The translations under genes and the position numbers were made by a program. From IMG/VR virus record IMGVR_UViG_3300045988_101216: a DNA stretch of 44,644 nt; one strand, given 5' to 3'. The DNA is from a virus. Positions 1 to 44,644 of this stretch are shown here, one piece after another; positions within the stretch are counted from its first letter, which is position 1, and every line of letters begins with the position of its first letter. The notes under the pieces were generated by a model that was not told the DNA's origin, ran no database searches, and worked only from the letters and a program-made list of their open reading frames with translations.

Positions 1-119
1 AACCGCCCACAAAGTGGTTGACCTTAAAACATTAGTGACACATAGAATTGCCACCCTGCTACCGGTCAAAGTTTTGGGGTGGTTTTTCTATGCTTAAAAC
101 ATTATCTGATAAACGTAAA
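1..119. repeat. Terminal direct repeat, copy 1 (identical to 44526-44644)
   Basis: Read directly: bases 1-119 (aaccgcccacaaagtggttg...ctgataaacgtaaa) recur base for base at 44526-44644, giving a unit length of 44525 bp. Confidence 0.95.
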
Positions 120-5680: not shown

Positions 5681-5759
5681 AATAATCCTCCTAAACGTCT
5701 ACTTATTAACCGCCCGTCAGCGGTAATGGATTCAGACAGATAAACCTCTGTCGGGGTAA

Positions 5760-5832
5760 TCGGGACACCCGGAATCGAACCGGGGACTTGCTGTGTATAA
5801 GACAGGTGCTCTACCAACTGCGCTATGTCCCA
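5760..5832 (-). tRNA. tRNA, anticodon UAU (Ile, AUA-decoding) by manual folding
   Basis: Sequence: TGGGACATAGCGCAGTTGGTAGAGCACCTGTCTTATACACAGCAAGTCCCCGGTTCGATTCCGGGTGTCCCGA. U8, A14, G18G19, A21 and the GGTTCGATTCC T-arm are present. The anticodon loop is CTTATAC with U33 and A37. No CCA is encoded. Confidence 0.85.
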
Positions 5833-6019
5833 AAATGCCGCCAAACAGCGGCAGAACATTTATAACCCGTTCAAAGGTGCTATTTGACCGGTAGACCCGT
5901 ACATTGATTATCAGGCTCAATGCGATAAGCCTAATGCACACGCCGGAAATTGCACCCGCTTTTCAACCTCCGGCATAAAGCCGTTTCTATTAAGGACGTG
6001 TGCTAAGAAAGGAGGTGTC

Positions 6020-9687: not shown

Positions 9688-10065
9688 TTATCTCTCCCAG
9701 TAATATATTGGTATCTCGTTCCCACTATCCCACGAATCCCAGTAATACCCGTCCTGCACACATACCACATGACCGTCAATCGCCAGTATGTAAGTTCCTT
9801 TTGGGTTGTCCTCGCAGAAATCTCGGACAGTGTATATATCCTGATTGTGGTCGTCTACCAGATGTCGCCGGAATCCCTTACGGCGGAGATACGCGCTCCA
9901 TACATGATTAGCCGAGGGCATATCTGACAAAGAAAATCCCATGAATGACAGTCCTGCATAGGTCGTTTCCCAGTCTTGATTTAATGCTTTGCTGATTGCT
10001 CGGACTGTGCAGTCTCCGACATTACTGCCCCGTGGGTTCGGATTGTATAGTTTCCATCTGTTCAT
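9688..10065 (-). CDS. Putative papain-fold Cys-His-Asp peptidase/amidase
   Basis: ORF track 9688..10071 (TTG). Start moved to the ATG at 10065. Motifs GDCTVRAISKAL, IDGHVVCV and DSWDSG are spaced like a Cys/His/Asp triad. Confidence 0.35.
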   Translation of the reverse strand: MNRWKLYNPNPRGSNVGDCTVRAISKALNQDWETTYAGLSFMGFSLSDMPSANHVWSAYLRRKGFRRHLVDDHNQDIYTVRDFCEDNPKGTYILAIDGHVVCVQDGYYWDSWDSGNEIPIYYWER

Positions 10066-10175
10066 AGGCAATCAAACTTCTTCCTTCCGCATTTTTACAT
10101 TCTTTCAAAGCAATATATCCTCTATCCGTTCTTAATCTTGACTTCGTTTTATATATGTGTTTGCAAAATAACATC

Positions 10176-10654
10176 TTAATTAGACTTTTTTGCATTTTCA
10201 TATCTCCTCGCCGCTCCTGCCGCTTTCATAGCCTGTTCTCTGTCCCATTTCGCCGTTTTTAATCTTTCCGCATAAGGCTTTAAATTATTATCTTCGCAAT
10301 ACTGCTTGTATGCGGTGTTCTGCTTTTTCAGCAGATAAGACTTTCTGTCAAACTCCTGCTGCAACTCAAATTTTAGTTTTTCATCACGGCAATTATCAAT
10401 AGCAGTCTGCATATTCTGTATTTTCCGCTTCGTATCACGCACACGCCACTCCAATGCCCTTTGTCTCTGCTGTTTCTCATAGGTTTTTCTATTTTCTTCC
10501 GTGTCGTACTGTTCAAACGGGTTTGTTGATATTCCCGGATAGTACGGTCCGAAGCTATGCCGACAGTTGGCTAAGCTCCGCAGAGTCCATCAACATATCC
10601 ATATCTAGTAGATTCTACAAAATCTGGATATTTTCTTTCTTCTGCGTTTTCCAT
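10176..10654 (-). pseudogene. C-terminal half of the SPP1 gp7 / Mu F-type minor head protein, with an internal frameshift
   Basis: The ATG at 10654 gives MENAEERKYPDFVESTRYGYVDGLCGA, then TAG at 10571-10573. The -1 frame continues LANCRHSFGPYYPGISTNPFEQY...EWRVRDTKRK into ORF-track 10176..10454. Confidence 0.7.
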
Positions 10655-10655
10655 A

Positions 10656-11327
10656 TCAATCACCTGCCTTTTTATTCCAATACTTTTCTTCTGCTGTTAT
10701 TCTGGCTTCTACAGCTTCTTTTTCTGTATCGAAATATCCTAAATGTATTGTTTTATAATTCACGCCTATCGTGGCTCTGTATTTCACATTTCCACTTTTA
10801 AAAACAGTTTTTATAACTCCAGAATGGACGGTCTTACAATCAGTTCGTTTTCCACGATTCCAACAATTTTCTTGATGAGTTATCCATCTGCAATTTTCAG
10901 GACTATACCCTTTGTCATTGTCTATTCTATCAAGAGTCAAATCATCTGAATATCCATTTTCCATCGACCAATTATAAAAATTGGAAAATCCGTTTTCGCC
11001 TTTCCATTCTTCACATACATCAATTCCACGTCCTCCGTAGTTCTCATAATGCGAAGCAGATGGGTTTTTACACCTGTGAAGAATACCTCGCCATTCTTTA
11101 TGTATTCTGCTTTTATATTTACCATGAATTAAAGACGCTTTGGAAGTTCTTTCTTTCTGCAAACACCCACATGACTGTGTATGCCCTGATTTCAATTTTG
11201 AAGTAGACACATATAAAATATTACCACAATCACATAAACACTCCCATTTATGAATCCAGTTTTCATGCGTTCCGTCTCCAATGACTCTTAGCCTTCCAAA
11301 TTTCTTCCCTATAAGATTTTCTTTCAT
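10656..11327 (-). CDS. HNH homing endonuclease with C-terminal AP2-type DNA-binding domain
   Basis: ORF track. Contains GKKFGRLRVIG...CLCDCGN...SCGC, LTLDRIDNDKGYSPENCRWITHQEN (HNH) and YRATIGVNYKTIHLGYFDTEKEAVEAR (AP2-like). Its stop overlaps the next ATG (TGATATG). Confidence 0.8.
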   Translation of the reverse strand: MKENLIGKKFGRLRVIGDGTHENWIHKWECLCDCGNILYVSTSKLKSGHTQSCGCLQKERTSKASLIHGKYKSRIHKEWRGILHRCKNPSASHYENYGGRGIDVCEEWKGENGFSNFYNWSMENGYSDDLTLDRIDNDKGYSPENCRWITHQENCWNRGKRTDCKTVHSGVIKTVFKSGNVKYRATIGVNYKTIHLGYFDTEKEAVEARITAEEKYWNKKAGD

Positions 11328-11353
11328 TTATCACGCACTCCTTTTATATACAT

Positions 11354-11417
11354 TCAACTACTTTCAGTTTATCATAATTACATTGTAATTGCAAGTAGTT
11401 GAAATATATGATAGAAT
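11354..11417. promoter_or_regulatory. Divergent control region: nested palindromes plus TTGCAA-17-TGaTAGAAT promoter
   Basis: TTCAACTACTT (11354-11364) pairs with AAGTAGTTGAA (11393-11403). Inner palindrome AATTACAtTGTAATT at 11376-11390. Plus-strand -35 at 11389-11394 and -10 at 11412-11417. Confidence 0.6.
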
Positions 11418-11439
11418 ACAATAAAAGGAGGTTGACAGC

Positions 11440-11604
11440 ATGAAAGAAAATCGTGGCTTGAAAAACCGCATAGCCATATCAAACGCAATAGATAAATCCC
11501 TTTACGAAAAGCTTAAACAGTATTCCGATGATACGGGAATCCCTATAAGCAAACTTCTTGACAAATCAATAGCTATGTTTCTTGAAAGTATAGAGAGAAA
11601 TTGA
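11440..11604 (+). CDS. Ribbon-helix-helix (CopG/Arc-like) protein, 54 aa
   Basis: Manual translation MKENRGLKNRIAISNAIDKSLYEKLKQYSDDTGIPISKLLDKSIAMFLESIERN. AAAAGGAGG RBS. Below the ORF-track cutoff. Confidence 0.7.
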   Translation: MKENRGLKNRIAISNAIDKSLYEKLKQYSDDTGIPISKLLDKSIAMFLESIERN

Positions 11605-11610
11605 CTCTCT

Positions 11611-12372
11611 TTACACTTTTATTTTGTTCCAATCGACCGAAAATACCTTTCCTTGCCACGGTTCATGTGTCGGTCTCGCTCCCATGTGTGCAGATGTAAG
11701 AACATATTTCACACCCATCTCTTTCGCTCTTGCAAGCGATACCTCAGCGGCACACTGACTGATTCCTGTTCTCAAAATCATCATCGTGGCAGATTCTATA
11801 CTCATTTTATAGCCAGAAGGATAATTTACTTTCAGCCCTGTTTCTGATACCTCTTTTAGTACGTCTCTGACAGCTTCTGTGTACGATACAGCCCCAGAAA
11901 CAACCATATTATAAGCGCTGTCCATCTGATTGATAAAAAGCCTCTGAGCCTCGTTTGCGGTAGTCTTAGTGAAGTTTCGCCACTCCCCTGCGGTAGCCTC
12001 GTAATTCCTCTGCATTATCCGCATAAGTGCCGGAGATTGCAAGAGCGGAACGGGAGACAGCCCAGCGGCCTGATAGATTTTATCGTCCCACTGTAAAGCT
12101 GTTACTCCTGCATCTTCCATAGCTTCTTTGATTTCCTGCACCTGCTTTTTGGTCTTATCGGAAAGCTCCTGCTGTATATCTTCCAGAAGATAGCCAGCCT
12201 CTTGCAATACCTCAATCTGCCATTTGTCCGTAGCGGTCAGAAGATAATCTTCGCCCCGTCCGATTCTCGCCATCATGCGGGCTATAATCTTGTCCAGTAT
12301 ATTTTTATGAAGCTGCGAGGCGATATTTTCAGCCCCTTCGGTTATGCGGTATAGATATTCTGGTGTAAGCAT
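11611..12372 (-). CDS. N-terminal half of the SPP1 gp7 / Mu F-type minor head protein
   Basis: ORF track, 253 aa. Ends ...SAHMGARPTHEPWQGKVFSVDWNKIKV, so it stops inside the conserved domain, before the NCRH motif. Confidence 0.75.
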   Translation of the reverse strand: MLTPEYLYRITEGAENIASQLHKNILDKIIARMMARIGRGEDYLLTATDKWQIEVLQEAGYLLEDIQQELSDKTKKQVQEIKEAMEDAGVTALQWDDKIYQAAGLSPVPLLQSPALMRIMQRNYEATAGEWRNFTKTTANEAQRLFINQMDSAYNMVVSGAVSYTEAVRDVLKEVSETGLKVNYPSGYKMSIESATMMILRTGISQCAAEVSLARAKEMGVKYVLTSAHMGARPTHEPWQGKVFSVDWNKIKV

Positions 12373-12638
12373 TAAACCACCTCATATGTTTTTTCAAAAA
12401 TATCAGGTTTGCATGAATATAATTCTCCATTTATACCTTGAATAACATAATCTCCTACTGTTACATGGTGGTCCCCTTCAAGAGTGCGAATAAACAGCTC
12501 TGGTCCATCATAGTACATGGTATTATTATTCACTGCACTAATTGCCCATTCTGGGACATATGGTTTCCCAATAGAATTTATCATGTCTCCATCATACTGG
12601 AACGCTTCAATTACAACTGGTTTCTTCCTATACTTCAT
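12372..12638 (-). CDS. Hypothetical phage protein (88 aa)
   Basis: ORF track. MKYRKKPVVIEAFQ...GDYVIQGINGELYSCKPDIFEKTYE resembles a recurrent phage family of unknown function. Confidence 0.5.
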   Translation of the reverse strand: MKYRKKPVVIEAFQYDGDMINSIGKPYVPEWAISAVNNNTMYYDGPELFIRTLEGDHHVTVGDYVIQGINGELYSCKPDIFEKTYEVV

Positions 12639-12641
12639 AGC

Positions 12642-12938
12642 CTATTCCTCCGTCTTTTTAACCTGCTTAATAACCTGATTCACGTATGTACTCAGTCCGG
12701 CAACAAGAATACCCTGCACAAGCGCTGTAAATACCGCCAAAGCGATTTCCTGACCGTTTGTCAGCGGGCTTGTTGCCAGCACCCATATAGCACAAAGACC
12801 AATTCCAATGCCGCCTAAAATTAACGGGATGTACTTATCTGCTACAGCTTCTGCCTTTTTAAATCCCATTCCCACAAAATACAGTACAATAGCAACAACA
12901 ATCAGTTCCGGTTTTACATAGTTCATAATCTGTTCCAT
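12642..12938 (-). CDS. Holin (three TM segments, Hol44-like)
   Basis: ORF track, 98 aa. PELIVVAIVLYFVGMGFKK..DKYIPLILGGIGIGLCAIWVLA..ALAVFTALVQGILVAGLSTYVNQVIKQ, with a charged C-terminus. Confidence 0.65.
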   Translation of the reverse strand: MEQIMNYVKPELIVVAIVLYFVGMGFKKAEAVADKYIPLILGGIGIGLCAIWVLATSPLTNGQEIALAVFTALVQGILVAGLSTYVNQVIKQVKKTEE

Positions 12939-18622: not shown

Positions 18623-18638
18623 AAAGGGGATGAGAGTC

Positions 18639-19274
18639 ATGAGCGATCTTACCGGAAAAAGATTTGGAAAATTGACCGTATTGAGTAAGACATGTGACAA
18701 GAAAAACGGATCTTATCTTTATAAATGTAAATGCGATTGTGGTAATATAAAAATGGCAACAGCTAGAGATCTTGGATCTAAACGAGTTCAAAGCTGTGGT
18801 TGTTCAAAAGGATTTCATAGGAATTTGGTTGGACAGAGATTTGGAAAGCTTACTGTTATAGAAGACTCCGGAGAAAAGCAGAAGAATGTCCGTATGTGGA
18901 CTTGTAAATGTGATTGTGGAAACATTGTAAATATACGAACAGATTCTTTAACCGGCGGAAAAGTTGTGAGCTGTGGATGTGGTAAAAAAAACGAAGAAAA
19001 AGCTAAGCAGCTTTTGTCCGGAAGGAATATTGTCGATCATACATCTGAGGTATTTTTTAAGGGAACAATCTCAAAAAACAATCATACAGGTGTAAATGGA
19101 GTATGTCTTTCTAAAGGTCGGTATATTGCGTATATTGGATATAAAGGAAAAACATACCGACTACTAACGACAACAGATTTTGATAAAGCAGTACAAGCAC
19201 GAAAAGAAGCAGAACAGCATATATTTAAAGATTTTGAGGAGTGGTATGGAAAATGGAAAACAATAAGAAAATAA
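18639..19274 (+). CDS. AP2-type DNA-binding protein with duplicated CxCDCGN...SCGC modules (no HNH motif)
   Basis: ORF track 18630..19274. Start moved to the ATG at 18639. Two GxRFGKLTV...C.CDCGN...SCGC units plus an AP2-like RYIAYIGYKGKTYRLLTTTDFDKAVQARKEAE. Paralogue of the N-terminus and AP2 part of 10656..11327. Confidence 0.65.
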   Translation: MSDLTGKRFGKLTVLSKTCDKKNGSYLYKCKCDCGNIKMATARDLGSKRVQSCGCSKGFHRNLVGQRFGKLTVIEDSGEKQKNVRMWTCKCDCGNIVNIRTDSLTGGKVVSCGCGKKNEEKAKQLLSGRNIVDHTSEVFFKGTISKNNHTGVNGVCLSKGRYIAYIGYKGKTYRLLTTTDFDKAVQARKEAEQHIFKDFEEWYGKWKTIRK

Positions 19275-44518: not shown

Positions 44519-44612
44519 AAGGAATAACCGCCCACAAAGTGGTTGACCTTAAAACATTAGTGACACATAGAATTGCCACCCTGCTACCGGTCAAAGTTTT
44601 GGGGTGGTTTTT
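44519..44612 (+). ncRNA. Candidate ~95-nt antitoxin sRNA, antisense to the 3' region of the 102..200 toxin transcript
   Basis: Starts after the 44484-44512 promoter. Ends at CCACCC...GGGTGG-TTTTT (44576-44612, equal to 51-87 in copy 1). Convergent with the toxin peptide gene. Confidence 0.45.
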
Positions 44613-44644
44613 CTATGCTTAAAACATTATCTGATAAACGTAAA
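44526..44644. repeat. Terminal direct repeat, copy 2 (identical to 1-119)
   Basis: Direct reading, as for copy 1. Confidence 0.95.

What the first reader, a model, noticed from the sequence alone, without database searches (positions are those of the whole stretch)
10176..12372. Minor head protein gene split within its conserved domain by an HNH-AP2 endonuclease/RHH cassette
ORF 11611-12372 ends ...HMGARPTHEPWQGKVFSVD-WNKIKV*. After 956 bp, an ATG at 10654 that overlaps the HNH stop (TGATATG) opens ...EERKYPDFVESTRYGYVDGLCGA..NCRHSFGPYYPGIS...QRQRALEWRVRDTKRK. In SPP1 gp7/Mu F-type proteins, the R-x-x-H...G-x-V-F block and the NCRH/C block belong to one continuous domain. One gene has therefore been cut in two.

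The insert carries an HNH homing endonuclease with an AP2 domain (10656-11327) and a divergently transcribed RHH gene (11440-11604). Because the opposite-strand RHH gene has a strong promoter, I favour a free-standing endonuclease insertion with the halves made as separate polypeptides. An ORF-bearing group I intron cannot be excluded.
Basis: partly seen in the sequence, partly recalled or inferred. Interest (0 to 1): 0.75.

Follow-up and report, generated by a model that had tools for sequence, protein, structure and literature searches.

The report
Endonuclease-split capsid gene needing ribosome hop
A selfish endonuclease cassette has cut a gut phage's minor capsid gene in two, and a second 5-base insert carried by the same cassette breaks the downstream half in a way that ribosomes can probably repair only by hopping between two matching alanine codons, which would be a short-range natural counterpart of the phage T4 gene 60 bypass.

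Summary
The split is real, but the gene is in three pieces, not two. The pieces match PF06152 collinearly:
- N piece, 11611-12372
- 27-codon middle piece, 10571-10654
- C piece, 10176-10568

The 956-nt insert is a free-standing HNH plus Arc-like RHH cassette. It is not an intron.
- Rfam finds nothing.
- The downstream half has its own Shine-Dalgarno and ATG.
- In relatives the cassette carries other HNHs, a reversed HNH, no RHH, or a GIY-YIG enzyme.

A 1323-nt block (10504-11826) is 100% identical to another phage contig whose flanks are only 80-93% identical. That indicates recent homing. The block includes the 5-base insert.

Across relatives I found five differently built micro-inserts of 4-10 nt at the same motif. 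Each is flanked by matching codons:
- GCU..GCC
- GUU..GUA
- GUU..GUU
- CGA..CGH
- GCC..GCU

A hop by the peptidyl-tRNA between the matched codons would restore the exact consensus protein. Chance gives about 5e-6. Three classes have a stop codon directly after take-off. The downstream ORF is intact in every case.

Best reading: a homing cassette with a linked micro-insert that ribosomes bypass. The hop itself is inferred, not shown.

The parts
11611..12372 (-). Gene for the N-terminal piece of the minor capsid protein (253 aa, stop TAA). It ends in the variable linker after the WQGKVF block.
   Evidence: PF06152 positions 1-244, 193.8 bits. It is 84-89% identical to residues 1-250 of intact homologues. 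The split point is the same in all cassette-bearing relatives.
11440..11604 (+). Arc-like ribbon-helix-helix gene (54 aa) on the opposite strand. It is part of the cassette.
   Evidence: PF12651, 52.3 bits. phrog_3180 'Arc-like repressor', E=2e-16. It accompanies the endonuclease in most related cassettes.
11315..11452 (.). Near-palindromic divergent control region between the RHH and HNH genes. Both ORFs begin ATGAAAGAAAATC behind the same ATAAAAGGAG, and there is a 17-nt inverted repeat in the centre. It is the presumed operator for the RHH protein.
   Evidence: Inverted repeats I1-I3. Promoter matches are only weak.
10656..11327 (-). Free-standing HNH-type endonuclease gene (223 aa).
   Evidence: phrog_374 'HNH endonuclease', E=1e-80. 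No Pfam hit. Invariant Cys cluster and R134/N145/N157 across homologues. Relatives at 47-100% identity sit at the same place in PF06152 genes.
10659..10665 (-). Shine-Dalgarno AGGTGAT for the downstream half. It lies inside the end of the HNH ORF, 4 nt before the ATG at 10654.
   Evidence: Read from the sequence. Equivalent SD plus start codon in all relatives.
10571..10654 (-). Middle piece: 27 codons, MENAEERKYPDFVESTRYGYVDGLCGA, then TAG.
   Evidence: PF06152 positions 248-272. 91% identical to residues 269-290 of P0001.
10574..10576 (-). Proposed take-off codon GCT (Ala), followed directly by the TAG stop at 10571-10573.
   Evidence: Sequence. The matched-codon rule holds in five gap classes.
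10570..10574 (-). The 5 extra bases (TTAGC) relative to intact GLCGANCRH alleles. They contain the stop and shift the frame.
   Evidence: Comparison with intact alleles. Identical in L006, L007, L010/L210, L011/L211 and L090.
10569..10571 (-). Proposed landing codon GCC (Ala), 5 nt downstream of the take-off codon. Decoding would resume at AAC (10566-10568).
   Evidence: A hop from GCT to GCC gives exactly ...GLCGA-NCRHSF..., the family consensus.
10176..10568 (-). C-terminal ORF (130 codons plus TAA): NCRHSFGPYYPGIS...ENAKKSN. There is no usable start codon before a TTG at 10454.
   Evidence: PF06152 positions 274-366, 50.8 bits. Frame and missing start. The ORF is intact in all interrupted relatives. 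Middle piece plus C ORF gives 157 aa, the size of uninterrupted C halves elsewhere.
10504..11826 (.). Recently transferred block. It holds the last 216 nt of the N piece, the cassette, the middle piece, the 5-nt insert and the next 67 nt.
   Evidence: 100% identical to IMGVR_UViG_3300045988_094856, whose flanks are 80-93% identical. The same interval is only 40-60% identical to cassette-free type-B relatives that match the flanks at 88-100%.

Best explanation
The locus holds a mobile homing-endonuclease cassette inserted in the variable linker of the phage's PF06152 minor capsid gene. The cassette carries an HNH-type nuclease, a divergently transcribed Arc-like RHH regulator and a palindromic control region.

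Shown:
- The insertion turns one gene into an N-terminal gene with its own stop codon and a downstream gene with its own Shine-Dalgarno and ATG at the HNH stop.
- The cassette moves between related phages together with about 216 nt of upstream and about 150 nt of downstream gene sequence.
- The transferred block always includes a micro-insert, 5 nt in this window, placed in the codons of the invariant G-x-C-G-x-N-C-R-H motif about 80 nt downstream of the nuclease gene.

Inferred:
1. The micro-insert destroys the nuclease's target in the most conserved DNA of the gene. It would so protect the carrier genome from self-cleavage, as the 50-nt insert of T4 gene 60 protects against MobA.
2. Ribosomes translating the downstream gene reach GCU with UAG in the A site.
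3. The peptidyl-tRNA(Ala) then detaches and re-pairs with GCC 5 nt further on, and decoding resumes at AAC.
4. The product is a 157-aa C-terminal subunit with the exact consensus GLCGANCRH.
5. Ribosomes that do not hop terminate after 27 residues.

The N and C subunits would then assemble into the minor capsid protein, which is needed in only a few copies per virion.
For: **Split and cassette**
- Three collinear PF06152 matches.
- Thousands of single-chain homologues.
- Nuclease and RHH assignments.
- Rfam finds nothing.

**Mobility**
- 10504-11826 is 100% identical to L210, against 80-93% in the flanks.
- The window has a type-B backbone with an imported centre.
- The same insertion point is used in very different phages, down to 25% PF06152 identity.
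- Nucleases are exchanged: HNHs of 30-100% identity, a reversed HNH, and a GIY-YIG enzyme.

**A two-piece gene works**
- About 33 IMG/VR contigs and about 8 protein clusters have an uninterrupted 148-160 aa C half.

**Bypass**
- Five structurally different gaps sit at the same motif. Each is flanked by codons that match in their first two bases, and joining them restores the consensus exactly:
  - GCT-TA-GCC (window)
  - GTT-TAGCCG-GTA (L009)
  - GTT-TGACCCG-GTT (L292)
  - CGA-N-CGT/CGC/CGA (more than 10 lineages)
  - GCC-CTACNNN-GCT (L291)
- Random inserts of the same size and place allow such a hop with p=0.07-0.11 each. The product over five classes is 5.5e-6.
- When the take-off codon is Val instead of Ala, the landing codon is Val too.
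- A stop codon (TAG or TGA) follows take-off directly in three classes, even though gap length and frame differ.
- In the CGA class the take-off codon never varies, while neighbouring synonymous sites do. The landing codon is only CGU, CGC or CGA, the set read by one inosine tRNA(Arg). Intact alleles use AGA, AGG, CGG, CGC, CGT and CGA.
- The downstream ORF is intact in every interrupted locus (108-267 codons) and in 32 distinct 90%-identity protein clusters.
- TAG is an ordinary stop in this genome.

**Precedent**
- The MobA/gene 60 cassette (bioRxiv 10.1101/2022.08.31.505936).
- Synthetic stop-hops between matched codons (PMC5009743).
Against: - No expression data exist. The hop, its efficiency and the immunity function are all inferred.
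- Short hops measured in E. coli constructs are inefficient. From memory of Weiss et al. 1987 they run at about 1%.
- No convincing stimulatory RNA structure was found. The window hairpin has z=-1.9, and the consensus fold for the CGA class is weak with no covariation.
- The strong purifying selection on the C ORF (dN/dS 0.04-0.08) mostly reflects divergence that predates cassette transfer. It does not prove translation after the interruption.
- Selection for immunity alone could conserve the insert.
- The 2-3-nt direct repeats flanking the gaps could in principle be a by-product of break repair.
- The nuclease lacks the canonical first histidine (DRID motif) and hits no Pfam HNH model.
- The cleavage site is unknown.
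Confidence: 0.7

Rival explanations
1. Selfish cassette with an immunity scar and no recoding. The micro-insert protects against self-cleavage but simply kills the C-terminal third of the protein. The phage gets by with the N piece and a 27-residue peptide. The downstream ORF looks intact only because each invasion is recent.
For: The cassettes are much more similar to each other than their host backbones are, so invasions are recent. Selection on the element alone would keep the insert. dN/dS on the C ORF cannot separate divergence before and after invasion. The C ORF of L008 is 18 codons shorter than that of its relative L239.
Against: It does not explain several observations:
- All five gap classes keep matched flanking codons (p about 5e-6).
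- Stop codons sit exactly after take-off in three classes.
- The take-off codon CGA is invariant.
- Frame-breaking inserts persist where in-frame or synonymous changes would protect equally well.
- 32 distinct interrupted protein clusters and more than 12 loci all keep full-length downstream ORFs, one of 267 codons.

Relatives with uninterrupted two-piece genes keep the C half, so it is evidently needed.
Confidence: 0.2
2. Recoding occurs, but by ordinary frameshifting or readthrough rather than a hop. That would mean a -1 or +2 shift in the window, +1 in the CGA class and stop readthrough in L009. The products would carry 1-3 extra residues inside the motif.
For: The frames required are -1, +1 and 0. 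An SD-like GGAG/GGGG lies just upstream of the site in all classes.
Against: - Three different mechanisms would be needed for one family of elements.
- There is no slippery heptamer or other known shift site.
- The products would carry extra residues in an invariant motif (one search lists N291, C292, R293 and H294 as invariant).
- It does not explain why a codon synonymous with the take-off codon always ends the gap.
Confidence: 0.07
3. ORF-bearing group I (or II) intron that is spliced out of the mRNA to restore one reading frame.
For: HNH genes are often intron-borne in phages of Gram-positive bacteria, for example SPO1 I-HmuI (general knowledge).
Against: - No Rfam intron model matches 9900-12600, even at E up to 10.
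- The flanking pieces carry their own stop and their own SD plus ATG.
- A gene lies on the opposite strand.
- L232 has almost no non-coding DNA around the nuclease gene.
- The nuclease is reversed in L289, and L292 has a GIY-YIG plus Arc pair on the other strand.
- Splicing of the 956 nt would still leave the 5-nt frameshift.
Confidence: 0.01
4. Sequencing or assembly error, or a one-off mutation in a dead prophage.
For: None beyond the prior that frameshifts in metagenomic contigs are often errors.
Against: The same 5-nt insert is found in at least six independent assemblies from different samples. Other gap classes recur in dozens more. The window is a complete circular-assembly phage genome with otherwise intact structural genes.
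Confidence: 0.01

Closest known systems
Phage T4 mobA / gene 39-gene 60 cassette with the 50-nt translational bypass (Bonocora et al. 2011, from memory; Manning & Atkins, bioRxiv 10.1101/2022.08.31.505936; Atkins et al. 2016, PMC5009743)
   Same: - A free-standing HNH-type homing endonuclease splits a conserved phage gene into two genes.
- A short non-coding insert lies in the downstream gene, a few tens of nucleotides from the nuclease gene, and travels with the cassette.
- Take-off and landing codons match, and a stop codon (UAG) follows take-off.
- The nuclease can be swapped for other families, including GIY-YIG, while the insert stays.
   Different: - Different target gene: a PF06152 capsid protein rather than topoisomerase.
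- Different hosts: gut Firmicute-type siphophages.
- No sequence homology was tested or is evident.
- Gaps are 4-10 nt, not 50.
- At least five gap designs occur at three codon positions, rather than one conserved design.
- No demonstrated stem-loop, gap-internal SD or nascent-peptide signal.
- An Arc-like RHH gene accompanies the nuclease.
- Bypass here is inferred, not measured.
MobE-split nrdA of Aeromonas phage Aeh1 ('genes in pieces'; Crona et al., PMC3045599)
   Same: A free-standing HEG inserted inside an ORF gives two separately translated polypeptides that reassemble. This matches the first break here and the uninterrupted two-piece relatives.
   Different: No second interruption and no recoding. 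It is an enzyme, not a virion protein.
Synthetic 'stop-hops' and +5/+6 hops in E. coli (Weiss et al. 1987, as reviewed in PMC5009743)
   Same: The peptidyl-tRNA moves between matched codons that flank a stop codon over a few nucleotides. This is the geometry of GCU-UAG-CC and of GUU-UAG-CCG-GUA.
   Different: Those were engineered constructs with low efficiency. The review states that no natural in-frame stop-hop was known.
Mitochondrial bypass elements ('byps') of Magnusiomyces capitatus (reviewed in PMC5009743)
   Same: Many short mobile inserts in coding regions are skipped by ribosomes between matched codons.
   Different: Those are 27-55 nt GC-rich hairpin elements in a mitochondrial genome. 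They are not linked to a homing endonuclease.
Intron-encoded HNH endonucleases such as I-HmuI of SPO1/SP82
   Same: An HNH nuclease gene interrupts a conserved phage gene and spreads by homing.
   Different: Those sit in self-splicing group I introns. No ribozyme is present here.

Membership tests
PF06152 Phage_min_cap2 (minor capsid protein) | Match to the family HMM above the gathering score | tested here: met
   N piece 193.8 bits and C piece 50.8 bits, against a cut-off of 26.3. The middle piece scores 16.3 bits, below the cut-off but collinear.
PF06152 Phage_min_cap2 (minor capsid protein) | Single continuous ORF covering the whole model | tested here: not met
   There are three pieces in three frames, separated by 956 nt and by a stop plus 5 nt. 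Homologues are single chains of 404-419 aa.
Free-standing homing endonuclease gene (HNH type) | Protein belongs to a nuclease family of the His-Me/HNH kind | tested here: inconclusive
   phrog_374 'HNH endonuclease', E=1e-80. However, no Pfam HNH model matches. The position of the first catalytic His is Arg (DRIDN), with R134/N145/N157 invariant.
Free-standing homing endonuclease gene (HNH type) | Presence/absence polymorphism at one site among close relatives | tested here: met
   Cassette-free alleles share 88-100% DNA identity in the flanks. Cassette-bearing alleles occur in several backbones.
Free-standing homing endonuclease gene (HNH type) | Cassette plus adjacent target sequence is more similar between genomes than the rest (co-conversion) | tested here: met
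   A 1323-nt block is 100% identical, against 80-93% in the flanks. Similar profiles are seen in other pairs.
Free-standing homing endonuclease gene (HNH type) | Site-specific cleavage of the cassette-free allele and resistance of the carrier allele | not testable with these tools
   This needs purified protein or mixed infections.
Group I intron with an ORF | Ribozyme core recognisable by covariance models | tested here: not met
   No Intron_gpI or group II hit in 9900-12600 at E up to 10. Relatives leave no room for a core.
Gene 60-type translational bypass cassette | Coding gap in the gene fragment downstream of a HEG, inherited with the HEG | tested here: met
   The gap lies inside the 100%-identical transferred block. 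A gap is present with nucleases of 30-100% identity and with a GIY-YIG enzyme.
Gene 60-type translational bypass cassette | Matched take-off and landing codons whose joining restores the protein | tested here: met
   All five gap classes comply. The chance expectation is 0.07-0.11 per class.
Gene 60-type translational bypass cassette | Stop or slow-to-decode codon in the A site at take-off | tested here: inconclusive
   UAG or UGA follows take-off in three classes, including the window. The others have ACG/GCG or CUA, which are not especially rare in this genome. The take-off codon CGA is the 4th rarest codon.
Gene 60-type translational bypass cassette | Take-off stem-loop or other stimulatory RNA structure | tested here: inconclusive
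   The window hairpin around the gap has -23.2 kcal/mol and z=-1.9. The consensus fold of the CGA class is weak, with covariation term +0.11.
Gene 60-type translational bypass cassette | Homology to the T4 50-nt cassette or to MobA | not tested
   No comparison with T4 sequence was made. Gap length (4-10 nt against 50 nt) and target gene differ, so I treat this as an analogue, not a member.
Gene 60-type translational bypass cassette | Demonstrated synthesis of one polypeptide from the two ORFs | not testable with these tools
   This needs proteomics or reporter assays.
Arc/MetJ ribbon-helix-helix repressors | RHH domain HMM above threshold | tested here: met
   PF12651, 52.3 bits against 21.6. 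phrog_3180 'Arc-like repressor'. A palindromic candidate operator lies next to it.

The most novel reading that the evidence does not exclude
A widespread family of gut-phage homing cassettes carries, as part of the mobile unit, very short programmed translational bypass sites of 4-10 nt, including natural 'stop-hops'. These sites would protect the nuclease target while still allowing the interrupted capsid gene to be expressed. This would be an independent, convergent counterpart of the T4 mobA/gene 60 system. It has several interchangeable gap designs and several interchangeable nucleases.
Probability: 0.65. Interest if true: 0.88.

Novelty: new variant of a known kind. Interest (0 to 1): 0.8.

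Why it matters
- Programmed ribosomal bypassing in bacteria and phages rests essentially on one example, T4 gene 60. Its cassette was still called unique in the 2022 survey. The 2016 recoding review states that short matched-codon hops and stop-hops are known only from synthetic constructs.
- A second, unrelated HEG-linked system would show that the combination of a protective insert and a ribosome hop is a general way for selfish nucleases to colonise the most conserved DNA of essential genes.
- Its minimal 4-10-nt gaps in five natural designs form a ready-made mutational series for working out what a hop minimally requires.
- There is a practical consequence. Gene callers annotate these loci as truncated or frameshifted genes, so such recoding is currently invisible in viromes.
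- Even without the hop, the locus is a clear example of a genes-in-pieces virion protein and of modular exchange of nucleases at one homing site.

Tried and rejected
- **Introns:** Rfam scan for group I/II introns at E up to 10 found nothing.
- **TAG reassignment:** rejected. Four long ORFs end in TAG, and the window needs a frame change as well.
- **Assembly error:** rejected, because the insert recurs in independent assemblies.
- **Re-initiation for the C ORF:** there is no ATG, GTG or TTG in frame between the stop and 10454.
- **Structure:** prediction for an intact homologue, meant to place the motif and the split point, gave an unusable model (pLDDT 52, pTM 0.30). I did not run a fold search on it. 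A profile search of the PDB found no relative, and the HNH has no PDB relative either.
- **RNA structure around the gap:** single-sequence folds and a 9-sequence consensus fold were weak and showed no covariation.
- **Promoters:** the scan found nothing above the shuffled expectation.
- **dN/dS of the C ORF:** low, but uninformative about the period after invasion.
- **Other searches:**
  - An allele with the window's exon sequence but without the 5 nt: none in IMG/VR.
  - A cultured phage with the same arrangement: none. The best HNH identity is below 60%. Clostridium phage phiCP39-O has a related nuclease next to, not inside, an intact minor head gene.
- **First global DNA alignment across the insert:** it misaligned, so I replaced it with piecewise comparisons.


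Full report
**1. What is in the sequence**

On the minus strand, ORF 11611-12372 encodes 253 aa ending ...WQGKVFSVDWNKIKV*. It matches Pfam PF06152 (Phage_min_cap2) positions 1-244 with 193.8 bits.

Downstream lie the RHH ORF (11440-11604, plus strand; PF12651, 52.3 bits) and a 223-aa ORF (10656-11327, minus strand).

One base after that ORF's TGA, an ATG at 10654 opens MENAEERKYPDFVESTRYGYVDGLCGA. This matches PF06152 positions 248-272 and stops at TAG 10571-10573.

The continuation NCRHSFGPYYPGIS...ENAKKSN matches PF06152 positions 274-366 with 50.8 bits. It lies in a different frame (10176-10568) and has no ATG, GTG or TTG before 10454.

Relative to intact genes the DNA reads GGA GC[T TAG C]C AAC TGT, which is 5 extra bases inside the codons of the invariant GLCGANCRH motif.

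**2. The gene is normally continuous**

A search with the joined pieces found about 4,500 homologues. The best 120 are single chains of 404-419 aa at 70-83% identity.

The three pieces align collinearly with them. The 956-nt insert sits in a variable linker between the WQGKVF and YPDF blocks.

**3. The insert is a free-standing endonuclease cassette, not an intron**

- PHROGs places the 223-aa protein in phrog_374 'HNH endonuclease' at E=1e-80, and the RHH in 'Arc-like repressor'.
- Pfam finds no domain in the nuclease. The usual first histidine is an arginine, in a DRIDN motif with R134, N145 and N157 invariant. The nuclease assignment therefore rests on family annotation and on the mobility evidence.
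- Rfam gives no intron match at E up to 10.
- The N piece has its own stop.
- The downstream part has a perfect Shine-Dalgarno (AGGTGAT, 10659-10665) and an ATG.
- The region between the RHH and HNH genes (11315-11452) is a near-perfect palindrome. Both ORFs start ATGAAAGAAAATC behind the same ATAAAAGGAG. This looks like a shared operator. Promoter matches there are weak.

**4. The same site is occupied in many phages, by varied cassettes**

Relatives of the nuclease at 47-100% identity sit at the same point of PF06152 genes in human-gut virome contigs.

The cassette content varies:
- The RHH is absent in L232, where only 17 nt and about 3 nt of non-coding DNA surround the nuclease gene.
- The HNH is replaced by one only 30% identical in L239 and L240.
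- The HNH is on the opposite strand in L289.
- A GIY-YIG nuclease plus an Arc-family gene replace the pair in L292.

About 33 IMG/VR contigs carry the split with an uninterrupted C half, M..YPDF..GICGVNCRHHF... Their abundance implies that the two-piece gene is viable.

**5. Recent transfer**

The window and IMGVR_UViG_3300045988_094856 are 100% identical from 11826 to 10504, a stretch of 1323 nt. On both sides they are only 80-93% identical.

Cassette-free 'type-B' relatives such as L213 match the window at 88-100% outside that interval and at only 40-60% inside it.

The block holds the last 216 nt of the N piece, the cassette, the middle piece, the 5-nt insert and 67 nt beyond it. This is the pattern expected from homing with co-conversion of flanking gene sequence.

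**6. The second interruption is a regular feature**

Many cassette-bearing relatives, though not all, have a small insert within the 12 nt that encode G-x-N-C-R-H. I found five designs.

| Class | Sequence | Shift | Loci |
|---|---|---|---|
| a | GCT-TA-GCC | +5 | window, L006, L007, L010/L210, L011/L211, L090 |
| b | GTT-TAGCCG-GTA | +9, in frame | L009 |
| b' | GTT-TGACCCG-GTT | +10 | L292 |
| c | CGA-A/G-CGT/CGC/CGA | +4 | L008, L012-14, L091, L092, L205-207, L232-236, L239/240, L286, L289 |
| e | GCC-CTACNNN-GCT | +10 | L291 |

In every class the codon before the gap and the last codon of the gap are synonymous and share their first two bases. If the tRNA on the first codon re-pairs with the second, the protein is exactly the family consensus.

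Where the residue before N is Val instead of Ala, both codons are Val codons.

A search with the repaired C half retrieved the C-half ORFs as gene callers see them. The counts of 90%-identity clusters were:
- 23 with the class c signature
- 6 with class e
- 2 with class a
- 1 with class b'
- about 8 uninterrupted

**7. Why I read this as translational bypass**

- Random inserts of the same length and position permit an exact-restoring hop in 7-11% of trials per class. The joint probability for five classes is 5.5e-6. It is about 5e-4 if a, b and b' are counted as one origin.
- Three classes have a stop codon directly after take-off, although their gaps differ in length and frame. This parallels the UAG of gene 60.
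- In class c the take-off codon is always CGA, while neighbouring synonymous positions vary. The landing codon is CGU, CGC or CGA and never CGG or AGR, although intact alleles use all six Arg codons. By the standard wobble rules that is the decoding set of a single inosine-containing tRNA(Arg), and CGA is its weakest pairing. CGA is also the fourth rarest codon in the window's ORFs.
- The ORF after the gap is intact in every locus examined, at 108-267 codons.
- The repaired window product has 27+130=157 aa, which is the size of uninterrupted C halves.
- Frame-breaking inserts have persisted across nuclease divergence down to about 40-50% identity. In-frame or synonymous changes would have protected the site equally well.
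- TAG is a normal stop in this genome.

**8. What remains inferred**

Nothing here measures translation.
- dN/dS on the C ORF is 0.04-0.08, but most of that divergence predates cassette transfer.
- Immunity alone could preserve the insert.
- The flanking 2-3-nt repeats might be a repair by-product.
- I found no convincing stimulatory RNA structure.
- The nuclease's cleavage site is unknown. I place it at the NCRH codons by analogy with MobA and gene 60, and because the region from -90 to +50 around the gap is the best-conserved DNA between cassettes even when the nuclease gene has been swapped.
- Short hops in E. coli constructs are inefficient (from memory of Weiss et al. 1987, cited in PMC5009743). 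A minor capsid protein is needed in few copies, so a low yield may be enough.

**9. Comparison with what is known**

The closest system is the T4 mobA/gene 39-gene 60 cassette. There a homing endonuclease split a topoisomerase gene, and a 50-nt insert in the downstream fragment blocks MobA while being bypassed between matched GGA codons after a UAG. Nucleases have been exchanged for GIY-YIG or Vsr types there too (bioRxiv 10.1101/2022.08.31.505936; PMC5009743).

That survey calls the bypass cassette unique. The review says natural stop-hops are unknown.

The present elements share the logic but differ in several respects:
- target gene and phage group
- gap length, 4-10 nt against 50 nt
- the multiplicity of gap designs
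- the RHH partner

I therefore treat them as an analogue and not as a member of that family.

The first break on its own resembles the MobE-split nrdA of phage Aeh1 (PMC3045599). Literature searches found no description of a split PF06152 gene or of HEG-linked short hops.

**10. Verdict**

The free-standing endonuclease split is right, and the intron is excluded.

The most likely mechanism is a homing cassette whose protective 5-nt insert is bypassed by a GCU-to-GCC hop over UAG. My confidence is about 0.7 for the whole model, above 0.9 for the cassette and split, and about 0.65-0.7 for the hop. If confirmed, this is a new variant of a very rare kind of recoding.

Noticed in passing
window 1-119 and 44526-44644: The first 119 nt are identical to the last 119 nt. 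The window is therefore a circularly assembled, apparently complete phage genome of about 44.5 kb.
   Followed up: partly
window 11315-11452: The RHH and HNH genes start with the same 13 nt (ATGAAAGAAAATC) and the same ribosome-binding sequence, in mirror image around a 17-nt inverted repeat. The whole divergent region is a palindrome.
   Followed up: partly
window 5759-5833 (-): A phage-encoded tRNA-Ile with anticodon TAT (ARAGORN).
   Followed up: no
window 18630-19274 (+): A 214-aa ORF whose N-terminal part is about 40% identical to the Cys-rich N-terminal region (residues 1-70) of the cassette nuclease. It may be a second nuclease-like or DNA-binding gene.
   Followed up: no
window 12642-12938 (-) and 12372-12638 (-): A holin (PF16079) and an 88-aa gene sit between the portal gene and the minor capsid gene, an unusual place for a holin. 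The 88-aa gene's L006 counterpart is on record as PF21825 'Sequestin', and it resembles PGDYG proteins of Enterococcus phages.
   Followed up: no
L292 1787-2360: At the same split site of a PF06152 gene, a GIY-YIG nuclease and an Arc-family gene (both on the opposite strand) replace the HNH/RHH pair. The micro-insert there is GTT-TGACCCG-GTT.
   Followed up: partly
L281 2249-3150 (also L280, L282, L283): A related RHH-HNH gene pair (64% and 41% identity) sits among other structural genes with no PF06152 gene nearby. The pair therefore seems to be a general mobile module.
   Followed up: no
L205 3270-4074 and L208 3175-4089: In these relatives the C half carries a C-terminal extension of about 140-150 aa, giving 267-304 aa. 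In L205 this long ORF lies downstream of the 4-nt gap.
   Followed up: no
L255, L263, L268 (upstream of the N piece): A second, different HNH gene lies 1.5-2 kb upstream of the split capsid gene in some class-d phages. The head module seems to be a hotspot for such genes.
   Followed up: no
L290 (Clostridium phage phiCP39-O, EU588980.1, 4994-5644): A related nuclease gene lies just downstream of an intact 406-aa minor head protein gene. This may be the 'next to the target' stage of the same kind of element.
   Followed up: no
L286 (IMGVR_UViG_641736145_000003): A prophage from an isolate genome has a PF06152 gene only 25-33% identical to the window's relatives. It carries the same split, a 51%-identical HNH and the gap CGA-A-CGA. 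It could serve as an experimental system.
   Followed up: partly
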